Part shown: positions 786-64,000 of the stretch, piece by piece | How the letters are laid out: each line of letters starts with the position of its first letter | Position numbering within the stretch: the first letter of the stretch is position 1 | Assembly (NCBI GenBank): GCA_043802485.1 | Contig: JAZDKZ010000006.1 | Location: 2,670 to 66,669, forward strand | Direction: 5' to 3' | Length of the DNA stretch: 64,000 nt | From: Candidatus Aenigmatarchaeota archaeon | Lineage (GTDB): Archaea > Aenigmatarchaeota > Aenigmatarchaeia > Aenigmatarchaeales > Aenigmatarchaeaceae | Position numbers and translations under genes: made by a program | Notes under the pieces: generated by a model | The model's database searches: none | Told to the model about the DNA's origin: nothing | Seen by the model: the letters and a program-made list of their open reading frames with translations, nothing else

Positions 786-1132
786 CTTTTTGAAATTAAT
801 AACTTCTTACGTGATAACATGTCAAGTTCAATGTAACATTGGAAATCTTGCTGATTAGGCGACTAGATGAGGCTTCTTATGACATAATATGTTGTCCGTG
901 TTGACCAAACCATCAGGCTTGGTTATGCCATATGACTTCGATACAGCTAATTTTGAGCCCTGAACAGGCTATGAAAACCCCCTGGGTAGATGATGGCGAA
1001 ATACGATGCTCATTGCGAAATTTTTCGCGGTGTAAGGGTTGAGGACTGTGAATGTTTTCGAACACCTATTGATGCGCAAGCAGATGAGAACAAGACGGTA
1101 AAACGAGTCCATAGATCAATCATGATCAATGA

Positions 1133-1163: not shown

Positions 1164-4100
1164 ATATTCAAACCACCAGGAGGATAGCTCAGCTCTCGAG
1201 AACGACGAAGATCCTAGCAAGTTGGGATAAGCCTGGGGTAGGCGCAAGCGGCCTTTGAACCCAGGATTGTTGAATGCGACATCGCACCAGTTTCGACTGG
1301 TAGCCCGAAAGGGCGGTGAACCCGCTGAATTGAAGCATCTAAGTAAGCGGAGGAAGAGAAAACAATTGTGATTCCGTGATTAACGGCGAGCGAAAACGGA
1401 ACAGAGCAAACCGAATTGCCGCAGAAATGCGGTTAAGATGTGGTACCCGGTACAACTTAACTGGTTGACTCGAAGTCGCCTGGAAAGGCGCGCCATAGAC
1501 TGTGATAGCCAGGTAGAGGAAGACCAGAAAGCTGATTCGGGAAAAGACTACCATTCCTCGGATATGGAGTGGGAAGACGGCTGGCATCAACGGCTAACTC
1601 TAAACATCTCGAGAGTCTGATAGCGGATAAGTAAGGCAACTGAAAGCTGAAAAGTATTCTTAACAGAAGGTGAAAAGATCTTGAAACCTGTTGGTGATAG
1701 TTATCCATGGCCTGAAAGGTGCTCTTGCGAAGGAAGACTGAGTGATCAGTGTATACGAGCAGGAGCTTACAGGGTTGTGGAGTCCGTTTCGAAACACGGG
1801 ACGGGGAGTTTGTTTCTGTGGCGAGCATAACTGCTTACGGCAGGCATGCGTAGCGAAAGCGAAATGTGCGTAGCGCAAGTCTGGCACTGGGTCTGAAAGG
1901 GCCTGCAGTCACAGCGACAAGACCAGAAAGCACTTGATCTAACCCCAATCAGGATGAAGCGTAGCGAAAGCTGCGTGGAGGTCCGAACTAGTACTGAGCT
2001 GCAAATCGTTTAGATGAATTGGGGTTAGGGGTGAAAAGCCAAACGAACGTGCTGATAGCTGGTTCCTTCCAAAATGTGCCTTAGTACAGCTCTGTCTGAG
2101 ATAGTTAGTAGGGTAAAGCACTGATTGGGGAGTCAAGGGAAGAAATTCCCAGCTTCCCTGTCAAACTAATAATCTATTAACGTCTGAGAAGACAGGAGTG
2201 AGAATACCGGGGTAAGCTCGGTATTCGAAAAGGGAACAACCTTGCCTGAGGTTAAGGTCCCCAATGCTTGACTAATTCATAAAGTTTGTTTCGATCCCAA
2301 GACAGGAGGGGCGTAGGCTCAGAAGTAGCCATCGCATAATCAACGTGTAATAACGGACCTCTCTAGGATCGGAGCGGCGAAAATGGACGGGAGTAAGTCA
2401 AGAACCGATACCTCAGATTGCGAAAGCAATAGTGTAGGAAGGCATTCTGCTTGGATAGAAGCATCTGCTTGAGCAGGTGTGGACCGGGCAGAATAGAAAA
2501 TCCCGCCGGTAGTAGCAGCAAAGAAAGGTTAGAATCCTTTCCGCCTTAAGGATAAGGTTTTCACGACAACATTTATTGGTCGTGATTTAGTCAGTCCTAA
2601 CCCAACCCTTAACTGACGTTGGGGAAGGAAAATCTGTTAATAATCAGATACCACAGACATACGTGCGGCAACGCTAGCCTGATTGTAGACATTTTGGGAT
2701 ATGCTGACGCAAGTTAAGTAGTGAAGACCGGGAAGTTCAGTCATTGAGAGAACCGGTTGAAGCTGCGAATAGCTCTGCTGTATAGCGGAGTTCAGCAAAT
2801 TTCCAGAGTCCGTGAAAATACAATTGGGAAGGATTGTTTGTGACTGTACTGAGAACCGATACAGGTATCCTTGCTGAGAAGGCAATGGCGTGTCGAGATA
2901 TGCCAGTCTAGGGAAATCGGCAAAATAGAGTCGTATGTTTGCTATAGGACTTGCCTATGCAGAGATGCATAGGTCGCAGTGACAAGGAGGAAGCGACTGT
3001 TTAATAAAAACATAGCTGACTGCTAAGGAGAAATCCTTTGTATAGTCAGTGAGGCCTGCCCAGTGCGAGTGTGTTAAAGTTGGTTTCAACCGACCTAAGC
3101 CCTCGTTAACGGCGGCGGTAACTCTGACCGTCTTAAGGTAGCGTAGTCCCTTGTCGATTAAATGTCGACCTGCATGAAGGGCTTAACGACTTCCTCACTG
3201 TCCCAGACTGGAGCTCGGCGAAGCTACTATTGTGGTGAGTAGGCCACAGACCCTCAGGGGGAAGAGAAGACCCCGTGGATCTTTGCGGTAGCCTGTTGTT
3301 GTTATATGGCTACAATTGCATAGTGTAGGCAGTAGTCGCCATGCTATTGGTTTTGGCCAATAGATAGACGCCGATGTAACACTGCCCTTTTGTAAACATA
3401 TGACTAACCCCATTGTGGGGACACCGATTGGTGGACCGCTTGGCTGGGGCGGTACACTCTTGAAAAGGTATCAAGAGTGCCCAAAGCAATCCTCATCTCC
3501 GTCAGAAATGGAGAGTAGAGTGTAAGCACAAATGGATTGTTTATTGGATTCAACACAGTAATGAATCCAATTGTGAAAGCATGGGCTAACGATCTGCCGA
3601 GCGTTATTGATGAATATCGGTTGTTTCAGAAAAGTTACCCCGGGGATAATGGAGTCGTGGCGGGTGAGAGCTCACATCGACCCCGCGCGTTGCTCCATCG
3701 CTGTCGGCTTCCCCTCTCCTGGCCGTGCAGTAGCGGCCAAGGGTACAGGTGTTCACTGGTTAAAAGGGGACATTAGCTGGGTTTAGTACGTCGTGATCTG
3801 ATATGGGTTTAACTCTTCTCTTTGGTAATTAGCATGATTAGCTTTAGCAATAGCGCTAGCGATGACTTCATGTGACCACGTCTGGAATGGGCGATGATTG
3901 CACCGCCCCATTTAGAATATCTATATGATAATTCGGGTGTAACTTATGAGTCCAATTTTAATCGGTGGTATGTCTGGCCCTTGGGCCTATTGCATGCCAT
4001 CGGTATCTATGTCAGACGATAAAGACAGTACGGTCTCTAACTACTGAGGGTGTTGTTACCTGACTCTAAGGAAGAATGAGTACGAAAGGAACGTTCTTCC

Positions 4101-46156: not shown

Positions 46157-46286
46157 CCCCAGGTAGCTCAATGGCAGAGCGATCGGCTGTAGACGAGTAC
46201 TGTAGTGCTTGTCGCTTAGCAGTCGCTCGGCAATCACCGATTACATAAGTCGGTAAAGGTTGGGGGTTCAAATCCCTCCCTGGGGA
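46157..46286 (+). tRNA. tRNA-Tyr(GTA) with two introns (46193-46235 at 37/38; 46242-46256 at 43/44)
   Basis: CCCCAGG/CCTGGGG acceptor stem (C1-G72), ATCGG/CCGAT anticodon stem, GGTTCAAATCC; both inserts have BHB-like junctions. Confidence 0.88.
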
Positions 46287-49404: not shown

Positions 49405-49665
49405 ATGTCGGTCACACTAAAATTGGACAAGGGGATGATAGAGAGACTTGTCGAGTGGACCGACATAGGACCTGACGATTCGAGGAACCTGACAGGCAAG
49501 GAGCTGACCCTGGAGCTGAATGACAGGGAGGTTCTGATAGAGCTGCACAAGAAGGACAGGACTATGGAAATATCTGACCTAAACGGCAGCTTTGGTATCT
49601 GGTTCAAGATCACGGACGAAAAGGTCGAGAAGTTTAAAAAGATAATTGAATTCATGGGCCCGTAA
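49405..49665 (+). CDS. Hypothetical protein
   Basis: ORF between two tRNAs; stop overlaps the first bases of tRNA-Lys. Confidence 0.6.
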   Translation: MSVTLKLDKGMIERLVEWTDIGPDDSRNLTGKELTLELNDREVLIELHKKDRTMEISDLNGSFGIWFKITDEKVEKFKKIIEFMGP

Positions 49666-49777
49666 CTCAGTCGGTAGAGTGCCAGGCTTTTATCTGTTAG
49701 ATAAAAGCATGTGTAACGCGAAAGCGTGATGACAGGAAGAAACCTGGAAGTCGTGGGTTCGAACCCCGCCGGGCCCA
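49656..49777 (+). tRNA. tRNA-Lys(TTT) with 49-nt intron (49693-49741, 37/38)
   Basis: GGGCCCG/CGGGCCC, CCAGG/CCTGG, BHB central helix CTTT/GAAG. Confidence 0.92.
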
Positions 49778-50216: not shown

Positions 50217-50328
50217 GTCGAGATAGCTCAGCCTGGTTAGAGCGCCGGTCTCATAAAATCATTATGAGATTTGACATCCAAGATGATATGGAATCCGGAG
50301 GTCGTGGGTTCAAATCCCATTCTCGACA
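50217..50328 (+). tRNA. tRNA(CAT), probably elongator Met, with 37-nt intron (best BHB at 38/39, 50257-50293)
   Basis: GTCGAGA/TCTCGAC acceptor stem, spliced CCGGT-CTCATAA-TCCGG, central helix TCAT/ATGG. Confidence 0.88.
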
Positions 50329-60719: not shown

Positions 60720-62360
60720 ATGAACGATATTTTTTGGTCAGACGAGATAGCAAGCCTCATGATCAATAGGAAAAAATACAATCATATTGACAAGAGGATT
60801 GAACCTTCAAAGAGCTTTGCTATAAAGAGCTCCACTTCCATATCCGGAGTTCCGCACATAGGCAATGCTTCTGATGTCATAAGGCATGATGCGGTCGTCA
60901 GGTCCTTGAAAGAAAAGGGGATGGATGTAAGGTTCATCTGGGTGGCTGAGGATATGGATGCTTTGAGAAAGGTTCCGGCAGGAATACCTGCCAACTTCGA
61001 GAAATACCTGGGCATGCCTGTTGCGGATGTGCCATGTCCTGAAGGCTGCCACAAGACCTACAGCGAGCATTTCTGCTCAAAGTTTGTTGACAGCCTGAAA
61101 GAGTTCGGGACGTATCCAGAGTACCTGTCGACCTCGAAAGAATACAGAGCAGGCAACTTTTCTAAATGGATAAAGACGGTTTTCGAGAACCTGGATGAGG
61201 TAAGAAGCATTCTCAACAAAGGCAGGAAGATCCCTCTCCCGGATGATTGGAATCCTTGGAAGCCTGTCTGCCAGAACTGTGGCAAATTAATGACGACAAA
61301 GGTGATTGGGGTTGACGGCAACAGCGTAAGATACTCTTGCGATGACTACCAGTTCAAGCCGTACGGCGAGAAGGCCTACACAAAGCTCACAGGTTGCGGT
61401 CACAAGGGAGAGAGCGACATGAAGAACGGCAAATTGCTATGGCGTGTCGAATGGGGGATGCTCTGGGCTCACTGGAAAATAAACTTGGAAGGCGCTGGCA
61501 AGGAGCATTTCATGCCGAGCGGTTCGTTCTGGAGTGCTGGCGAGGTCGCTGAAAAGATATTCGGCTGGCCGGAGCCTTATCCTGGAAAGAACTACATACA
61601 GCCTTACGAGTATCTGACGATATCAGGCAAGAAGATGTCTGCTTCTGTTGGCAATGTCGTTTCCACATGGGAATGGCCAACGTTCGCTCCGGCGCAGATA
61701 CTCAGGATGATATTTCTGAAAAAGCCGAATCGTGTGAGGGACTTTTCATATGAATATATTCCAAAGTACATGGACGAGTTCTACAGACTGCAGAGGATAT
61801 ATTTCGGCAAGGAGGAGGACGACAGGGAGGAATTCTCCAAGAGGCTCTATATGATGAGCGAGGTTTATGTGCCTGATAAGATGCCTGCGCAGATACCTTT
61901 TGAATATGCTGCCATGGTATCTCAAATGGTTCCTGAGAAAAATTCTTTAGAAAAGGCTGTGCAGTTATTCAGGGCTACAGGTCATCTTGGCCAGGATTAT
62001 GACGAAGCCAGAATCAAGAAGATTCTGAGCATGGCAAAGAACTGGTCTGACAGGTACGGAGGCGACAGCTACAAGATAAAACTTATGGAAGAGCCGTCAA
62101 GGGAATTTTTGGAAAATTTGAGCAGCGACCAGAAGAAAGCGATAAAGATGCTGGCCGAAGCGCTTGCCGAAGACTTTTCAGAGAAAGAACTTTATAATAA
62201 GATTTTTGACATAATCAAGGAGACTGGCATAAAATCAAAGGAGTTCTTTGGAGCAGTTTACAGCATCCTCTTAGGCAAGCCTTGGGGTCCCAGGCTAACT
62301 CCTTTCATATTGATAATCGGAAGAGAAAGAGTAAAAAATATTCTGGACAAGGTTCAATAG
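60720..62360 (+). CDS. lysS: Class I lysyl-tRNA synthetase
   Basis: SGVPHIGN, LRKVP, GKL.WRVEW, KMSAS.GN, GPRL. Confidence 0.96.
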   Translation: MNDIFWSDEIASLMINRKKYNHIDKRIEPSKSFAIKSSTSISGVPHIGNASDVIRHDAVVRSLKEKGMDVRFIWVAEDMDALRKVPAGIPANFEKYLGMPVADVPCPEGCHKTYSEHFCSKFVDSLKEFGTYPEYLSTSKEYRAGNFSKWIKTVFENLDEVRSILNKGRKIPLPDDWNPWKPVCQNCGKLMTTKVIGVDGNSVRYSCDDYQFKPYGEKAYTKLTGCGHKGESDMKNGKLLWRVEWGMLWAHWKINLEGAGKEHFMPSGSFWSAGEVAEKIFGWPEPYPGKNYIQPYEYLTISGKKMSASVGNVVSTWEWPTFAPAQILRMIFLKKPNRVRDFSYEYIPKYMDEFYRLQRIYFGKEEDDREEFSKRLYMMSEVYVPDKMPAQIPFEYAAMVSQMVPEKNSLEKAVQLFRATGHLGQDYDEARIKKILSMAKNWSDRYGGDSYKIKLMEEPSREFLENLSSDQKKAIKMLAEALAEDFSEKELYNKIFDIIKETGIKSKEFFGAVYSILLGKPWGPRLTPFILIIGRERVKNILDKVQ

Positions 62361-63079
62361 CCGAACCTTCTCTGCCGTCTGCTGTACTCTTTGACGCATC
62401 TTATGAGGTCCCTTTTGGTAAAGTCTGGCCAGCATTTTTTCATGACTATGAGCTCTGCGTAAGCGACCTGCCATGGCATGAAGCCGGATATCCTCTTCTC
62501 GCCTCCGGTCCTTATCAGCAGGTCTATGTCGTCCTTCACCAGCAGGTTGTCCTTTATCGTTTTTTCAGTGACTGTGACAACGCCTGTCTCCAAAGCTTTC
62601 TTGGCTATCTTCTTTACAGCCTGCGTGAGCTCGAACTTGCCGCCGTAGGCAACAAGAATATTGAAGACCCTTCTGTTGTACTTTTCAGTCTTTTTCATTA
62701 TCTTGCCCATCACTTTTCTCAAACCCAAGGGCAGTTTTGTCAGGTCTCCGACAAACCGCATTCTTATCTCATACTTGTCCAGAAAGCTCTTCTTCTCGTT
62801 CTCTAGCTTTTCTAGCTCTTTCTGGAAAAGACCTAGAAGGGCATTGACCTCCATTTTGGACCTGTTCAGGTTTTCAGTTGATAGGGCGAAAACAGAGACT
62901 TTGGGTATCTTCAAATCGACGCACCACTCGAACAATTGCTCCAGCTTCTCAGCTCCGAAAGAATGCCCTTGCCAGGGCTTTAGGCTGTGCTTAAGGGCCC
63001 ATCGTCTGTTAATGGGGTTTTACTAAACCTTTCCATCCAGGATGACGCCCAAGTGACTAGGTATTGCTGTTGCCTTCAA
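62354..63079 (-). CDS. uppS: cis-prenyltransferase (undecaprenyl diphosphate synthase family); exons 63079-63031 and 63009-62354
   Basis: IPSHLGVILDG|NRRWA after removal of 21 nt; FALSTEN, AYGG, DLLIRTGGEKRISGF, WPDF, RRFG; TTG start with GGGTGGT ribosome-binding site. Confidence 0.92.
63010..63030 (-). other. 21-nt BHB intron in uppS mRNA
   Basis: Minus strand ATGG-AA|A-GGTTT-AGTA-AAACC-CCAT-TA|A; unspliced frame contains TAG TAA. Confidence 0.85.
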
Positions 63080-63965
63080 ATAAATACCACCCTATTTTTG
63101 TTCTTTTCATTATGCCAGATTTGACTAATATGTGCAAATAAAGCAATATAGTGTTTCTGTGCATTTTAACATTATATTTTTTCTCTATATAAGTTTTCAA
63201 CTCCCTGAAATTCAGATTTTCAGGATACGAACCTCTTAATTTGCTATAAAGCTCTTTCAAAATTGGCGCTTTGGCGTTAGCCCTTACAGGGAACAACTTA
63301 ATTAGTTCTTCTATATCTGTTTTTCTATTTCCCCTGATTATTTCCAGTTTAGTCTTTTTAGGACCTTCAAGATTCTTCAAGAAGAAACCAAAAGATTTGC
63401 TATAGAAACCGTACTTCCATCTTTTCGACCATCTTTCGAACTTTCTTTTGAAAAGCTTAACTCTGAGTTTGTTTTCCTTTAGAATATAGACCATTTGATC
63501 CCTTAGCTTCTTACTTATCGATGTAAATTCTATTGTTCCGTCCAACTTCACAGAGCCGTCAAAAATCAATGCTGATGAAACAAATGATATCTTGTATTTA
63601 TTGCCTCCCTTCATGATTTCTTCTGGTATTCTGACTATGCTCCCTTTCTTTCCATAGGGAAACCCTAGGCTGTGAAGGTATGGTATCAGATGTTTATTGC
63701 CTATTCTGAACCTAAAACCTCCCTTTAGAGGTTTTATTGAGCCTTTCTTACCTGTTATCTCCTTTACCCATTCCGAGATCAACTTTACATTCTCAAACCA
63801 TTCATCCGTCAATTCGAAATAACTAGAATAATAGTGGTGACCATTCCACATCTTTTTCTGCCTGTAAATAGTGCCGTCTGTGGCAAGGGCGCCGCACAGC
63901 TTGCATATCGTAATTCCTATATTTCCTTCATGGATTTTAGAATTTGTAAGGGAAAAACCTTCCAT
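63057..63965 (-). CDS. Free-standing double-motif LAGLIDADG endonuclease-like protein with C-terminal winged helix
   Basis: LCGALATDGTI and FVSSALIFDGSV motifs, intervening LGFPYGKK..IPEEI; overlaps the uppS start. Confidence 0.8.
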   Translation of the reverse strand: MEGFSLTNSKIHEGNIGITICKLCGALATDGTIYRQKKMWNGHHYYSSYFELTDEWFENVKLISEWVKEITGKKGSIKPLKGGFRFRIGNKHLIPYLHSLGFPYGKKGSIVRIPEEIMKGGNKYKISFVSSALIFDGSVKLDGTIEFTSISKKLRDQMVYILKENKLRVKLFKRKFERWSKRWKYGFYSKSFGFFLKNLEGPKKTKLEIIRGNRKTDIEELIKLFPVRANAKAPILKELYSKLRGSYPENLNFRELKTYIEKKYNVKMHRNTILLYLHILVKSGIMKRTKIGWYLFEGNSNT

Positions 63966-64000
63966 GAGAACTTTATTACATTCTCTGCTTAAATCTGTTT

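What the first reader, a model, noticed from the sequence alone, without database searches (positions are those of the whole stretch)
62354..63965. Free-standing LAGLIDADG gene coupled to the intron-bearing uppS: possible collaborative homing unit
Seen: a two-motif LAGLIDADG ORF with both acidic residues (ATDG, IFDG) overlaps the uppS start and ends under 30 nt from the mini-intron; it appears more AT-rich than uppS. Established: homing endonucleases target highly conserved codons, and in phages free-standing endonucleases co-spread with ORF-less introns that disrupt their site. Inference: the enzyme cuts intron-less uppS at the DGNRR codons and the 21-nt intron gives self-immunity, forming an endonuclease plus BHB micro-intron mobile system. 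Alternatives: a domesticated WhiA-like regulator (it has a C-terminal winged helix), or an enzyme acting on another site such as the 23S intron position.
Basis: inference. Interest (0 to 1): 0.8.

Follow-up and report, generated by a model that had tools for sequence, protein, structure and literature searches.

The report
Homing-endonuclease cassette with spliced mini-intron in uppS
A selfish DNA-cutting-enzyme gene sits inside the start of an essential archaeal cell-envelope gene, bringing a spare copy of that gene's first 16 codons and a roughly 20-base intron of the type the cell's tRNA-splicing enzymes remove, which would be a rare case of an intron in an archaeal protein-coding gene and hints at how such introns spread.

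Summary
A 302-aa two-motif LAGLIDADG protein with a winged helix (63057-63965, minus strand) overlaps the TTG start of uppS. uppS is broken between the Asp-Gly and Asn-Arg-Arg-Trp codons by 21 nt that carry TAG and TAA.

The same layout occurs in all 9 distinct loci that could be read: endonuclease gene, then a Shine-Dalgarno sequence and a short uppS exon 1, then a 19-36 nt insert, then the rest of uppS. Four of the nine inserts are not multiples of three. All fold as a 4-bp helix between 3-nt bulges plus a hairpin whose sequence differs between loci but stays paired. Cutting in the bulges restores DGNRRW every time. EndA and RtcB are encoded in the genome.

The endonuclease N-termini are decayed copies of uppS exon 1. 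The cassette therefore sits at the intron site itself and uses the native uppS promoter and start codon.

Distribution is patchy: 4 of 371 genomes in the phylum, and sister genomes have neither part.

Verdict: a mobile or recently mobile homing cassette coupled to a host-spliced mini-intron. This is a new variant of known kinds. Splicing and DNA cleavage have not been tested.

The parts
63986..63993 (-). TATA-like box (TTTAAGCA) 20 nt upstream of the endonuclease ATG. It corresponds in position to the box upstream of the uppS ATG in the same-genus genome G003.
   Evidence: The G000 and G003 intergenic-plus-promoter regions align with score 3, against -29.6 +/- 6.3 for shuffles. The -45..+45 sub-region scores -8, against -20.7 +/- 5.0, and 16 of 1000 shuffles reach it.
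63057..63965 (-). LAGLIDADG homing-endonuclease gene, 302 aa, single chain with two motifs and a C-terminal winged helix.
   Evidence: There are 17 full-length homologues at 50-66% identity. For the pair L056/L054, dN/dS is about 0.07-0.15.
63924..63965 (-). Codons 1-14 of the endonuclease ORF: the decayed remnant of the displaced uppS exon 1 (exon 1*). It ends in ..IHEG, which aligns with ..IPDG in other family members.
   Evidence: Alignment A2. An HMM of uppS N-termini hits the N-termini of family members P0015, P0004 and P0007 at 17.5, 12.8 and 10.9 bits, against 3.6 for the best of 1050 decoys. G000's own remnant gives no significant hit and is assigned from the alignment and from the promoter/ATG correspondence.
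63873..63905 (-). LAGLIDADG motif 1 (residues 21-31, ending in D30-G31).
   Evidence: D30 and G31 invariant in 18 of 18. (end of helix 15-29).
63555..63590 (-). LAGLIDADG motif 2 (residues 126-137, ending in D136-G137).
   Evidence: D136 and G137 invariant in 18 of 18. (end of helix 122-136).
63075..63218 (-). C-terminal winged helix-turn-helix (about residues 250-297).
   Evidence: helices 253-264 and 270-282, strands 286-290 and 293-296. Only weak Pfam HTH hits.
63087..63091 (-). GGTGG Shine-Dalgarno-like sequence. It is formed by the conserved Gly-Trp codons of the endonuclease C-terminus and lies 7 nt upstream of the uppS TTG.
   Evidence: The same GG(G/T)TG(G/C)TA..(T/C)TG arrangement is present in all 9 loci.
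63031..63079 (-). uppS exon 1' (functional copy): TTG start, 16 codons through Asp-Gly, plus the first base of the Asn codon.
63010..63030 (-). 21-nt mini-intron of bulge-helix-bulge type. Helix H2 is AUGG/CCAU, bulge 1 is AAA, hairpin H3 is GGUUU-AGUA-AAACC, and bulge 2 is UAA.
62354..63009 (-). uppS exon 2 (Asn-Arg-Arg-Trp... through the stop codon). PF01255 E 6.9e-63, TIGR00055 E 3.3e-55.
   Evidence: The spliced ORF is 238 codons counted from the upstream stop.

Best explanation
This is a homing-endonuclease cassette inserted exactly between the Asp-Gly and Asn-Arg-Arg codons of the only uppS gene in the genome.

From 5' to 3' on the minus strand the order is:
- the native uppS promoter and ATG;
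- a decayed native exon 1, now the first 14 codons of the endonuclease;
- the LAGLIDADG and winged-helix endonuclease;
- a Shine-Dalgarno sequence and TTG start embedded in the endonuclease's last codons;
- a replacement exon 1;
- a 21-nt bulge-helix-bulge mini-intron;
- the rest of uppS.

Shown:
- the anatomy, and its conservation in 9 of 9 loci;
- the covarying RNA structure;
- the exact in-silico restoration of DGNRRW;
- the patchy distribution, with insert-free and endonuclease-free sister genomes;
- the intact active-site residues and purifying selection on the endonuclease.

Inferred:
- both genes are co-transcribed from the old uppS promoter;
- the host tRNA-splicing endonuclease EndA and ligase RtcB remove the mini-intron so that uppS can be translated from the TTG;
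- the endonuclease cuts intron-less uppS DNA at the conserved DGNRR codons;
- repair from a cassette-bearing donor copies the cassette, using exon 1 on the left and exon 2 on the right as homology;
- the mini-intron splits the re-formed target and so protects carriers.

The design ties expression of the selfish gene to an essential gene.
For: Anatomy:
- Searches show that G003 of the same genus has Zn-ribbon gene / uppS / LysRS with a roughly 70-nt spacer. G000 has the 909-nt ORF inserted there, plus the 21-nt insert.

Conservation:
- All 9 distinct readable loci share the layout: G000, L052, L053, L054, L055, L056 (=L057), L058, L060 and L061 (=L062).
- Inserts are 21, 19, 21, 20, 30, 20, 21, 36 and 19 nt. 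Removing them gives DGNRRW and ORFs of 238-248 codons in 6 complete loci. L061 gives 539 codons because its endonuclease ORF is in frame. L058 and L060 run to the contig ends.

RNA structure:
- On 8 aligned loci, 93.1% of cells pair, against 18-51% when the partners are slid. Six of 9 pairs carry changes on both sides, and 0 of 500 shuffles reach the covariation score.
- RNAalifold independently predicts the same two helices with the 3-nt bulge.

Splicing machinery:
- The genome encodes one EndA (182 aa) and RtcB.
- There is a single uppS match in the genome.

Cassette at the target site:
- The endonuclease N-termini resemble uppS exon 1.
- The G000 endonuclease ATG and promoter align with the G003 uppS ATG and promoter.

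Mobility:
- Orthologues occur in 4 of 371 genomes of the phylum (family f1 0/20 besides G000, f12 2/23, f15 1/70).
- On the uppS tree the 7 carrier alleles need 4 changes, at least 3 of them forced by well-supported branches. G000 is sister to intron-less G003, and L055 is sister to intron-less G006.
- The G000 endonuclease groups with that of L055 (support 89/79), although their uppS genes are distant.
- The endonuclease gene is 35.8% GC, against 43.6% for the genome.
- An intron-less uppS allele about 90% identical is present in the same runs X1-X3.

Activity:
- D30 and D136 are invariant in 18 of 18 members.
- The model matches the I-DmoI and PI-PfuI folds.
- For L056/L054, endonuclease dN is 0.09-0.12 and dS 0.63-1.75.

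Second case in the genome:
- A paralogue in G000 is flanked by a duplicated gene end in the same manner.
Against: - There is no RNA evidence. No RNA run holds the stretch, so splicing is inferred.
- No biochemical test of DNA cleavage or of the target site was possible.
- The exon-exon helix of the motif is weak and variable, and L058 has an A.G mismatch in the central helix. The motif is therefore relaxed, and the only EndA found is a short form of single-subunit length.
- The single-sequence fold is not significant.
- G000's own exon-1 remnant is too decayed to score. Its promoter/exon-1* alignment is only modestly significant (16 of 1000 shuffles).
- G000's replacement exon 1 looks like its own clade's type, not like that of L055. 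The donor is therefore unclear, and the tree incongruence has only moderate support (89/79).
- Strong purifying selection would also fit a domesticated role.
- One carrier (L054) has a frameshifted endonuclease, so the arrangement can persist without the enzyme.
- No solo insert at the Asp-Gly|Asn site was found, although a purely 'collaborative' intron-only transfer would predict some.
Confidence: 0.65

Rival explanations
1. Immobile relic or domesticated protein. The cassette arose once in an ancestor and is now inherited vertically and lost repeatedly. The LAGLIDADG and winged-helix protein is kept for a host function, such as DNA binding or regulation, or because uppS translation is coupled to it. 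It no longer homes.
For: - dN/dS is low.
- The Shine-Dalgarno sequence and TTG of uppS are built into the endonuclease's last codons in all 9 loci. uppS expression therefore depends on the ORF.
- All carriers lie in one class.
- Foldseek also matches WhiA (E 1.7e-7).
- L054 keeps the insert although its endonuclease is frameshifted.
Against: - Both catalytic Asp are invariant in 18 of 18 members, whereas WhiA-type proteins have lost them (recalled, not tested here).
- Orthologues occur in 4 of 371 genomes, with sister genomes lacking both parts. That would need many precise losses, each restoring an intact DGNRR.
- Recombination between the two exon-1 copies should leave solo inserts at this site, and none was seen.
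- The endonuclease gene is AT-rich relative to the genome.
- The endonuclease and uppS trees disagree, with moderate support.
Confidence: 0.2
2. The endonuclease targets some other site, for example an rRNA position, and its position next to uppS is incidental. The mini-insert is then an unrelated intron.
For: - BHB-type mini-inserts can occur without this endonuclease. G125 has a 32-nt one at another uppS site and no orthologue.
- Archaeal LAGLIDADG enzymes are typically found in rRNA introns (fold matches).
Against: - The endonuclease gene is adjacent to this exact insert in 9 of 9 loci, across deeply divergent uppS lineages and with different upstream neighbours.
- Its N-terminus carries uppS exon-1 sequence ending at the very codons where the insert lies.
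- The 23S match of 3152 nt against a 2987-position model leaves no room for an ORF-bearing intron.
Confidence: 0.06
3. The insert is not spliced. Either uppS is a pseudogene or an assembly artefact, or the ribosome bypasses or recodes the insert.
For: - The unspliced frame stops after 22 codons.
- There are no RNA data.
- The small, host-dependent genome might tolerate loss of the gene.
Against: - The insert is present in independent contigs and in 9 loci, with compensatory base changes that preserve a splicing motif.
- Exon 2 is intact and conserved in 7 complete loci.
- uppS is found in 40 of 41 related genomes and is single-copy here.
- Insert lengths of 19, 20, 30 and 36 nt with in-frame stops rule out read-through.
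- No landing codon matching the take-off codon is present for a hop (by inspection).
Confidence: 0.05

Closest known systems
Mobile endonuclease ORFs (mORFs) with duplicated gene ends in fungal mitochondria: Allomyces macrogynus atp6; Glomus atp6, atp9, cox2 and nad3. Source: PMC3630166, abstract and passages of the introduction and of section 18 read.
   Same: A LAGLIDADG or GIY-YIG ORF inserts into a conserved gene together with a replacement copy of the gene's end. The native end is displaced and decays. The hybrid gene is expressed, and close relatives lack the element.
   Different: Here the 5' end of the gene is replaced rather than the 3' end. The displaced native end is recruited as the promoter, start codon and N-terminus of the endonuclease. 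The junction carries a host-spliced BHB mini-intron, which the fungal cases lack. The host is an archaeon. The G000 paralogue next to the GTPase gene does follow the 3'-end pattern.
Collaborative or trans homing of ORF-less introns by neighbouring free-standing endonucleases in phages: F-CphI with the psbA intron of cyanophage S-PM2, and T4 mobE with the I-TevIII intron. Sources: PMC6083498 and PMC2790892, seen only as search listings and abstract starts. The psbA details are recalled.
   Same: The endonuclease gene lies outside an ORF-less intron in the adjacent conserved gene. The intron is proposed to interrupt the enzyme's target, and the two are found together.
   Different: The intron here is not a self-splicing group I intron. 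It is a 19-36 nt BHB element that depends on host EndA and RtcB. The endonuclease is a LAGLIDADG enzyme fused to a displaced exon. No intron-only alleles were found at this site.
Archaeal rRNA-intron LAGLIDADG homing endonucleases (I-DmoI, I-Tsp061I) and intein endonucleases (PI-PfuI).
   Same: The fold matches, the enzyme is single-chain with two motifs and acidic residues, the host is an archaeon, and there is an association with a BHB intron.
   Different: Those enzymes are encoded inside the intron or intein and target rRNA or the intein-free allele. [quoted passage not shown]
The cbf5 pre-mRNA BHB intron of Crenarchaeota. Source: PMC2738675, abstract and passages read.
   Same: A short BHB intron (16-44 bp there) in an archaeal protein-coding gene, with lineage-specific presence.
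   Different: The gene and the phylum differ (a DPANN-type archaeon; the record title of L054 says Candidatus Aenigmatarchaeota). The cbf5 intron has no associated endonuclease. That paper notes it is too short to encode one and that, as of 2009, splicing had been confirmed for no other gene.
WhiA (bacterial LAGLIDADG plus HTH regulator).
   Same: Two LAGLIDADG-like domains followed by a C-terminal HTH. Foldseek match E 1.7e-7.
   Different: The catalytic Asp residues are retained here, the distribution is sporadic, and the gene sits at a fixed insertion site.

Membership tests
LAGLIDADG homing endonuclease (single chain, two motifs) | Two LAGLIDADG helices, each ending in an acidic residue | tested here: met
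   D30 and D136, each followed by Gly, are invariant in 18 of 18 members. They lie at the ends of helices 15-29 and 122-136.
LAGLIDADG homing endonuclease (single chain, two motifs) | Pseudo-dimeric alpha-beta-beta-alpha-beta-beta-alpha fold | tested here: met
   Model pLDDT 89.5. Foldseek matches PI-PfuI at E 8.5e-11 and I-DmoI at TM 0.77 (normalised to the target) with rmsd 2.8.
LAGLIDADG homing endonuclease (single chain, two motifs) | Match to a curated family profile above its cut-off | tested here: inconclusive
   LAGLIDADG_3 scores 17.1 bits against a cut-off of 22.5, and Endonuc_subdom 17.4 against 24.4. Relatives do pass: P0023 38.6 bits and P0033 35.9 bits, and P0004 has a precomputed PF14528 match.
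LAGLIDADG homing endonuclease (single chain, two motifs) | Site-specific double-strand cleavage of the element-free allele | not testable with these tools
   This needs purified protein and intron-less uppS DNA.
Archaeal bulge-helix-bulge (BHB) intron | 4-bp central helix flanked by two 3-nt bulges on opposite strands | tested here: met
   Helix H2 pairs in 96.9% of cells, and pair 17/54 covaries (CG 4, UA 3, UG 1). Bulge 1 is AAA in all 8 aligned loci. L058 has one A.G mismatch. G000 can also be drawn as a 5-bp helix with a 2-nt bulge.
Archaeal bulge-helix-bulge (BHB) intron | Outer helices h (exon-exon) and h' (inside the intron) | tested here: inconclusive
   For h', all 5 pairs carry changes on both sides and 90% of cells pair. 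For h, only hand inspection of A4 was done. It is 2-6 bp long and its register differs between loci, which makes this a relaxed motif.
Archaeal bulge-helix-bulge (BHB) intron | Cuts at symmetric bulge positions give a functional product | tested here: met
   Cutting after the second bulge base restores DGNRRW in 9 of 9 loci.
Archaeal bulge-helix-bulge (BHB) intron | Splicing endonuclease and RtcB ligase encoded in the genome | tested here: met
   EndA: PF01974 E 1.1e-27, a 182-aa ORF. RtcB: E 2.1e-173.
Archaeal bulge-helix-bulge (BHB) intron | Removal observed at the RNA level | not testable with these tools
   No RNA holder was listed.
Collaborative homing unit (free-standing endonuclease plus ORF-less intron) | Endonuclease gene outside the intron, next to the intron-bearing gene, and the two co-occurring | tested here: met
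   Both parts are present in 9 of 9 loci. All 30 inspected loci of relatives have neither.
Collaborative homing unit (free-standing endonuclease plus ORF-less intron) | The intron interrupts the endonuclease's recognition site | not testable with these tools
   The target site is unknown. The claim is inferred from the insertion point and from the exon-1 remnant.
Collaborative homing unit (free-standing endonuclease plus ORF-less intron) | Self-splicing (group I) intron | tested here: not met
   The inserts are 19-36 nt with a BHB motif, too short for a ribozyme. No Rfam intron family was reported at this place.
mORF with duplicated gene end | Endonuclease ORF flanked by two copies of the host gene's terminal segment, one functional and one displaced | tested here: met
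   Exon 1* lies at the endonuclease N-terminus and exon 1' lies downstream. The paralogue has a duplicate of the GTPase C-terminus, 20 of 29 aa identical.
mORF with duplicated gene end | The inserted copy is of foreign origin and the displaced copy is native | tested here: inconclusive
   The promoter and ATG upstream of exon 1* are native. The L055 remnant keeps the MTDDV start of its intron-less sister. However, G000's exon 1' also looks like its own clade's type.
WhiA-like regulator | Degenerate active site and broad housekeeping distribution | tested here: not met
   The Asp residues are invariant and orthologues occur in 4 of 371 genomes.
Intein | In-frame insertion with Hint splicing blocks | tested here: not met
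   There is no Hint or intein-splicing Pfam hit. Only the endonuclease subdomain is weakly matched. The ORF ends with its own stop codon before exon 1'.

The most novel reading that the evidence does not exclude
Archaeal BHB introns in protein-coding genes can be created and spread by homing endonucleases. This cassette invades an essential gene at its most conserved codons and takes over the gene's promoter and start codon for itself. It supplies a replacement first exon with its own ribosome-binding site. It leaves a roughly 20-nt host-spliced intron as the scar that both repairs the message and protects the carrier from re-cutting. If so, this is a first mechanistic route for the origin of archaeal mRNA introns, and a new way for a selfish gene to make itself hard to lose.
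Probability: 0.5. Interest if true: 0.9.

Novelty: new variant of a known kind. Interest (0 to 1): 0.85.

Why it matters
- In the literature I could search, pre-mRNA splicing in Archaea has been confirmed for one gene only, cbf5 (PMC2738675, passages read). Searches found no report of introns in uppS or in Aenigmatarchaeota protein-coding genes.
- How ORF-less BHB introns arise and move is an open question.
- This locus offers a compact system testable in vitro: one endonuclease, one roughly 20-nt intron and one essential target. Nine natural variants already supply covariation evidence.
- It matters for annotation. Gene callers truncate uppS in these genomes, or fuse its exon 1 to the endonuclease (P0013, L061).
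- It extends the 'replacement gene end' strategy of mitochondrial mobile ORFs to Archaea.

Tried and rejected
- Single-sequence folding of the G000 insert gave z = -1.62. This is not evidence by itself.
- RNA evidence: no RNA holder was listed, so expression and splicing could not be examined.
- A genome-wide search for further mRNA mini-introns in G000 was made.
  - The first script timed out.
  - A loose motif gave 9793 hits and 707 coding candidates, which is uninformative.
  - Requiring an AAA bulge gave 305 hits and 34 candidates, and recovered uppS.
  - I read 19 of the 34 by eye and found none convincing. Upstream peptides looked out of frame, or the unspliced frame was already continuous. 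The other 15 were not inspected.
- My first script for removing the inserts had an off-by-one error and gave wrong junctions. It was corrected.
- I looked for solo inserts at the Asp-Gly|Asn site.
  - The class-wide PF01255 search printed only 150 of 306 matches, all of them uninterrupted.
  - Ten low-scoring genomes were re-examined. G125 has an insert at a different site. G173 has a frameshift or deletion. Of the rest, four are cut by contig ends and four have complete matches.
  - G004 and G038, whose matches start at profile positions 3 and 4, were not inspected.
- The idea that the 5' end of the mini-intron is homologous to the first codons after the remnant in the endonuclease ORF was not supported when the loci were compared by eye.
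- Whether exon 1' comes from a donor or is native could not be decided.
- Intein, read-through and ribosome hopping were rejected (see the rival explanations and the membership tests).
- MAFFT misaligned the 30-nt insert of L055, so L055 was dropped from the pair count. Its pairs (AUGG/CCAU and UAUGAU/AUCAUA) were read by hand.

Full report
**Context**

The window is G000:C6:2670-66669 of a 768,849-bp archaeal genome in 7 contigs, 89% complete. It carries an archaeal 23S rRNA and archaeal RNase P RNA. It also has three Rfam tRNA matches of 112-130 nt that ARAGORN does not call, so these probably contain introns. One related locus bears the record title Candidatus Aenigmatarchaeota.

**The observation**

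On the minus strand, ORF 63057..63965 encodes 302 aa. Its Pfam matches are weak: LAGLIDADG_3 E 0.0066 and PI-PfuI endonuclease subdomain E 0.008, both below their cut-offs.

Directly downstream, the uppS frame reads ...LKATAIPSHLGVILDG-KV**NPI-NRRWALKH.... The part from NRRW onward matches PF01255 at E 6.9e-63 and TIGR00055 at E 3.3e-55.

- Both acidic residues are present.
- The endonuclease ORF overlaps the TTG at 63077-63079 by 23 nt.
- There are 26 nt between the endonuclease stop codon and the insert.
- GC is 35.8% for the endonuclease gene and 47.4% for uppS exon 2.

**The protein**

An AlphaFold model built on 18 sequences has pLDDT 89.5 and pTM 0.87. D30 and D136 cap the two LAGLIDADG helices, and there is a C-terminal winged helix.

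Foldseek against the PDB gives PI-PfuI (8.5e-11), the Tli VMA intein endonuclease, I-Tsp061I, I-DmoI (TM 0.77 normalised to the target) and also WhiA (1.7e-7).

The word-indexed search found 17 other proteins of 206-311 aa at 50-66% identity, among 1092 candidates. The exhaustive search found 142 proteins at E <= 1e-3, but only 5 at E <= 1e-30. The more distant relatives are 400-570-aa LAGLIDADG_3 plus HTH proteins.

D30, G31, D136 and G137 are invariant in 18 of 18 members.

**An insertion relative to the nearest genome**

G003 (same genus) has glycosyltransferase / 126-aa ORF / Zn-ribbon gene / uppS / LysRS. There are about 70 nt between the Zn-ribbon gene and an uninterrupted uppS.

G000 has the same neighbours, with the 909-nt ORF between the Zn-ribbon gene and uppS, plus the 21-nt insert.

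No orthologue of the ORF was found in 40 relatives. The best matches have 27-35% identity.

uppS was found in 39 of these 40 relatives, without internal stops in any best match. All 30 loci fetched, apart from G000's own, read DGNRR[W/F/L] uninterrupted.

**The same layout elsewhere**

Pattern scans confirmed 3 loci in species-representative genomes, out of 65 pattern hits. They confirmed 9 loci in metagenome contigs, out of 216 pattern hits.
- L057 repeats L056, and L062 repeats L061.
- L059 and L063 end before the junction.

In the remaining 8 loci and in G000, that is 9 of 9, the order is the same:
1. the endonuclease ORF;
2. a GG(G/T)TG(G/C) sequence and a TTG (CTG in L061) inside the endonuclease's last codons;
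3. 16-20 codons ending in ..DG;
4. an insert;
5. NRRW and the rest of uppS.

The inserts are 21, 19, 21, 20, 30, 20, 21, 36 and 19 nt. Removing them restores DGNRRW.
- The resulting ORFs are 238-248 codons in 6 loci.
- In L061 the ORF is 539 codons, because the endonuclease ORF is in frame with exon 1.
- L058 and L060 run off their contigs.
- Unspliced frames stop after 22-32 codons.

Four of the nine lengths are not multiples of three, so the insert cannot be translated through.

**RNA structure**

All inserts can be drawn in the same way:
- exon-1 bases A(U/C)GG pair with CC(A/G)U near the 3' end of the insert;
- a 3-nt AAA bulge follows;
- then a hairpin of 4-6 bp whose sequence differs from locus to locus;
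- then a second 3-nt bulge.

This is the arrangement of the archaeal bulge-helix-bulge splicing motif as I recall it.

On the 8-locus alignment A4 (L055 was left out because MAFFT misaligned it), one search gave:
- 93.1% of 72 cells form standard pairs, against 17.9-51.4% when partners are slid by 1-3 columns;
- 6 of 9 pairs carry changes on both sides;
- 0 of 500 shuffles reach the covariation score or the paired fraction.

The 'further pair types' measure was not above the shuffles (494 of 500 reach it). Relatedness of the sequences can inflate such tests.

RNAalifold, run without my structure, predicts the same helices.

The exon-exon helix is short and its register differs between loci (hand inspection), so the motif is a relaxed one.

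The genome encodes one EndA (182 aa) and RtcB. A paper on EndA types states that alpha4-type enzymes with an extra loop occur in several DPANN lineages that have many disrupted tRNA genes (PMC5829648, passages read). I did not test which type this EndA is.

**The endonuclease begins with a displaced uppS exon 1**

In alignment A2, several family members start with sequences such as ..IHVALIPDG, followed by the endonuclease core. P0013 runs in frame at its C-terminus into a second ..HVALIPDG.

An HMM of the 14 residues ending in DG, built from 28 intron-less relatives, was run against the endonuclease proteins.
- It scores the N-termini of P0015, P0004 and P0007 at 17.5, 12.8 and 10.9 bits, and P0002 at 3.1.
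- It also scores the C-terminal run-ons of P0013 and L061.
- The best of 1050 shuffled decoys scores 3.6.
- G000's own remnant does not score.

For G000, two lines of evidence apply. The spacer and promoter upstream of its endonuclease ATG are homologous to those upstream of the G003 uppS ATG. The same TTTAAGCA box lies 20 nt before the ATG in both genomes.

In L055 the remnant keeps the MTDDV start of its intron-less sister allele from G006.

The cassette therefore lies at the Asp-Gly|Asn site itself, and it uses the native uppS expression signals.

**Distribution and evolution**

The family profile finds orthologues (E <= 1e-25) in 4 of 371 genomes of the phylum. By family: f1 0/20 besides G000, f12 2/23, f15 1/70.

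The uppS exon-2 tree has 36 rows. Left out were the duplicates L057 and L062, the incomplete L058-L060, and relatives without a fetched locus. On this tree:
- the 7 carrier alleles need 4 changes of state, at least 3 of them forced by well-supported branches;
- G000 is sister to intron-less G003 (100/99);
- L055 is sister to intron-less G006, in a distant clade.

The endonuclease tree has 22 rows. P0015 was left out as truncated, and only the first fragment of L054 was used. On this tree G000 groups with L055 and P0002/P0004-P0007 at 89/79. That disagrees with the uppS tree, with moderate support only.

For the close pair L056/L054:
- endonuclease dN is 0.12 and 0.09, and dS 1.75 and 0.63, for the two parts;
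- uppS dN is 0.07 and dS 1.18.

The L054 gene is frameshifted into ORFs of 206 and 114 aa.

**Reads**

No RNA run holds the stretch.

Logan contigs of X1 and X2 cover 62912-64000 with no difference. X3, from another study, holds endonuclease pieces at 0 differences, but no listed piece crosses the insert.

In X1, X2 and X3 there is also a second uppS variant, with 61 differences over 629 nt in X3. It leaves the reference at 62986. Its loose end, read on the minus strand, encodes Asp-Gly-Asn-Arg-Arg-Trp without an insert. A potential recipient allele therefore co-occurs with the carrier.

**Mechanism**

Shown:
- the anatomy;
- the conservation across loci;
- the covariation;
- the restoration of the reading frame;
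- the patchiness of the distribution.

Inferred:
- co-transcription of both genes from the old uppS promoter;
- removal of the insert by EndA and RtcB;
- translation of uppS from the embedded Shine-Dalgarno sequence and TTG;
- cleavage of intron-less DGNRR DNA by the enzyme;
- repair that copies the cassette, using exon 1 and exon 2 as the homology arms;
- protection of carriers, because the insert splits the target.

**Comparison with known systems**

The closest known design is the mitochondrial mobile ORF that brings a replacement gene end and displaces the native one (PMC3630166, passages read). The next closest is phage collaborative homing (PMC2790892 and PMC6083498, listings only).

It differs from these in three ways:
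- it acts at the 5' end of the gene;
- it recruits the displaced exon for its own expression;
- it uses a host-spliced BHB mini-intron.

The only archaeal mRNA intron with confirmed splicing that I found in print is in cbf5. It has no endonuclease (PMC2738675, passages read; searches).

**Verdict**

The finding is confirmed and extended. I put about 0.9 on the insert being a spliced BHB-type intron. I put 0.65 on the whole being a mobile or recently mobile homing cassette that targets the DGNRR codons of uppS.

Noticed in passing
L072 (G125:C1), minus strand, about 2085-2150: uppS of another genome of the same class has a different 32-nt insert after ..GHKYGA. It has the same design: GUGC, an AAA bulge, a 9-bp hairpin, GCAC, and a second AAA bulge. 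The fold has z = -3.08. Removing the insert gives ..GAKKFEEFLNW in frame. The gene has its own promoter and ATG, and the genome has no orthologue of this endonuclease. It is therefore a solo mini-intron at a second uppS site.
   Followed up: partly
L002 (G000:C1:126584-130036): 967-1060 (-), 1522-2382 (+), 2371-3435 (-): A 286-aa paralogue of the endonuclease (32% identity) lies between an Obg/YchF-like GTPase gene and a displaced duplicate of that gene's last 29 codons. The duplicate is 20 of 29 aa identical, with local score 104 against a maximum of 44 in 500 shuffles. This is the same duplicated-gene-end signature, here at a 3' end and without an intron.
   Followed up: partly
L061/L062 and protein P0013: In these members the endonuclease ORF has no stop codon before uppS exon 1'. 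After removal of the insert, a single 539-codon endonuclease-UppS frame would result. Internal initiation at the CTG or TTG is the alternative.
   Followed up: no
L054 3001-3860: The endonuclease gene of this carrier is frameshifted into ORFs of 206 and 114 aa, while the mini-intron and uppS stay intact. The endonuclease fragment also has a long branch (0.41, against 0.11 for L056). This fits decay after fixation.
   Followed up: partly
G000:C5:33652-33921 (-): A weak match to the endonuclease (E 9.4e-4) lies inside a 1220-aa open frame. It may be an intein-borne LAGLIDADG domain.
   Followed up: no
window 46157-46286, 49656-49777, 50217-50328: Three Rfam tRNA matches of 112-130 nt are not called by ARAGORN, so they are probably intron-bearing tRNA genes. 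The 23S match spans 3152 nt for a 2987-position model.
   Followed up: no
window 62358-62986, as seen in runs X1-X3: A second uppS allele about 90% identical, with an uninterrupted DGNRRW, co-occurs with the carrier allele in three runs from two studies.
   Followed up: partly
L078 (G173:C22), minus strand, about 1430-1600: uppS there is split by a frameshift or deletion after ..YGGQQELVDA. No helix-bulge motif was seen, so it may be an assembly error or a pseudogene.
   Followed up: partly
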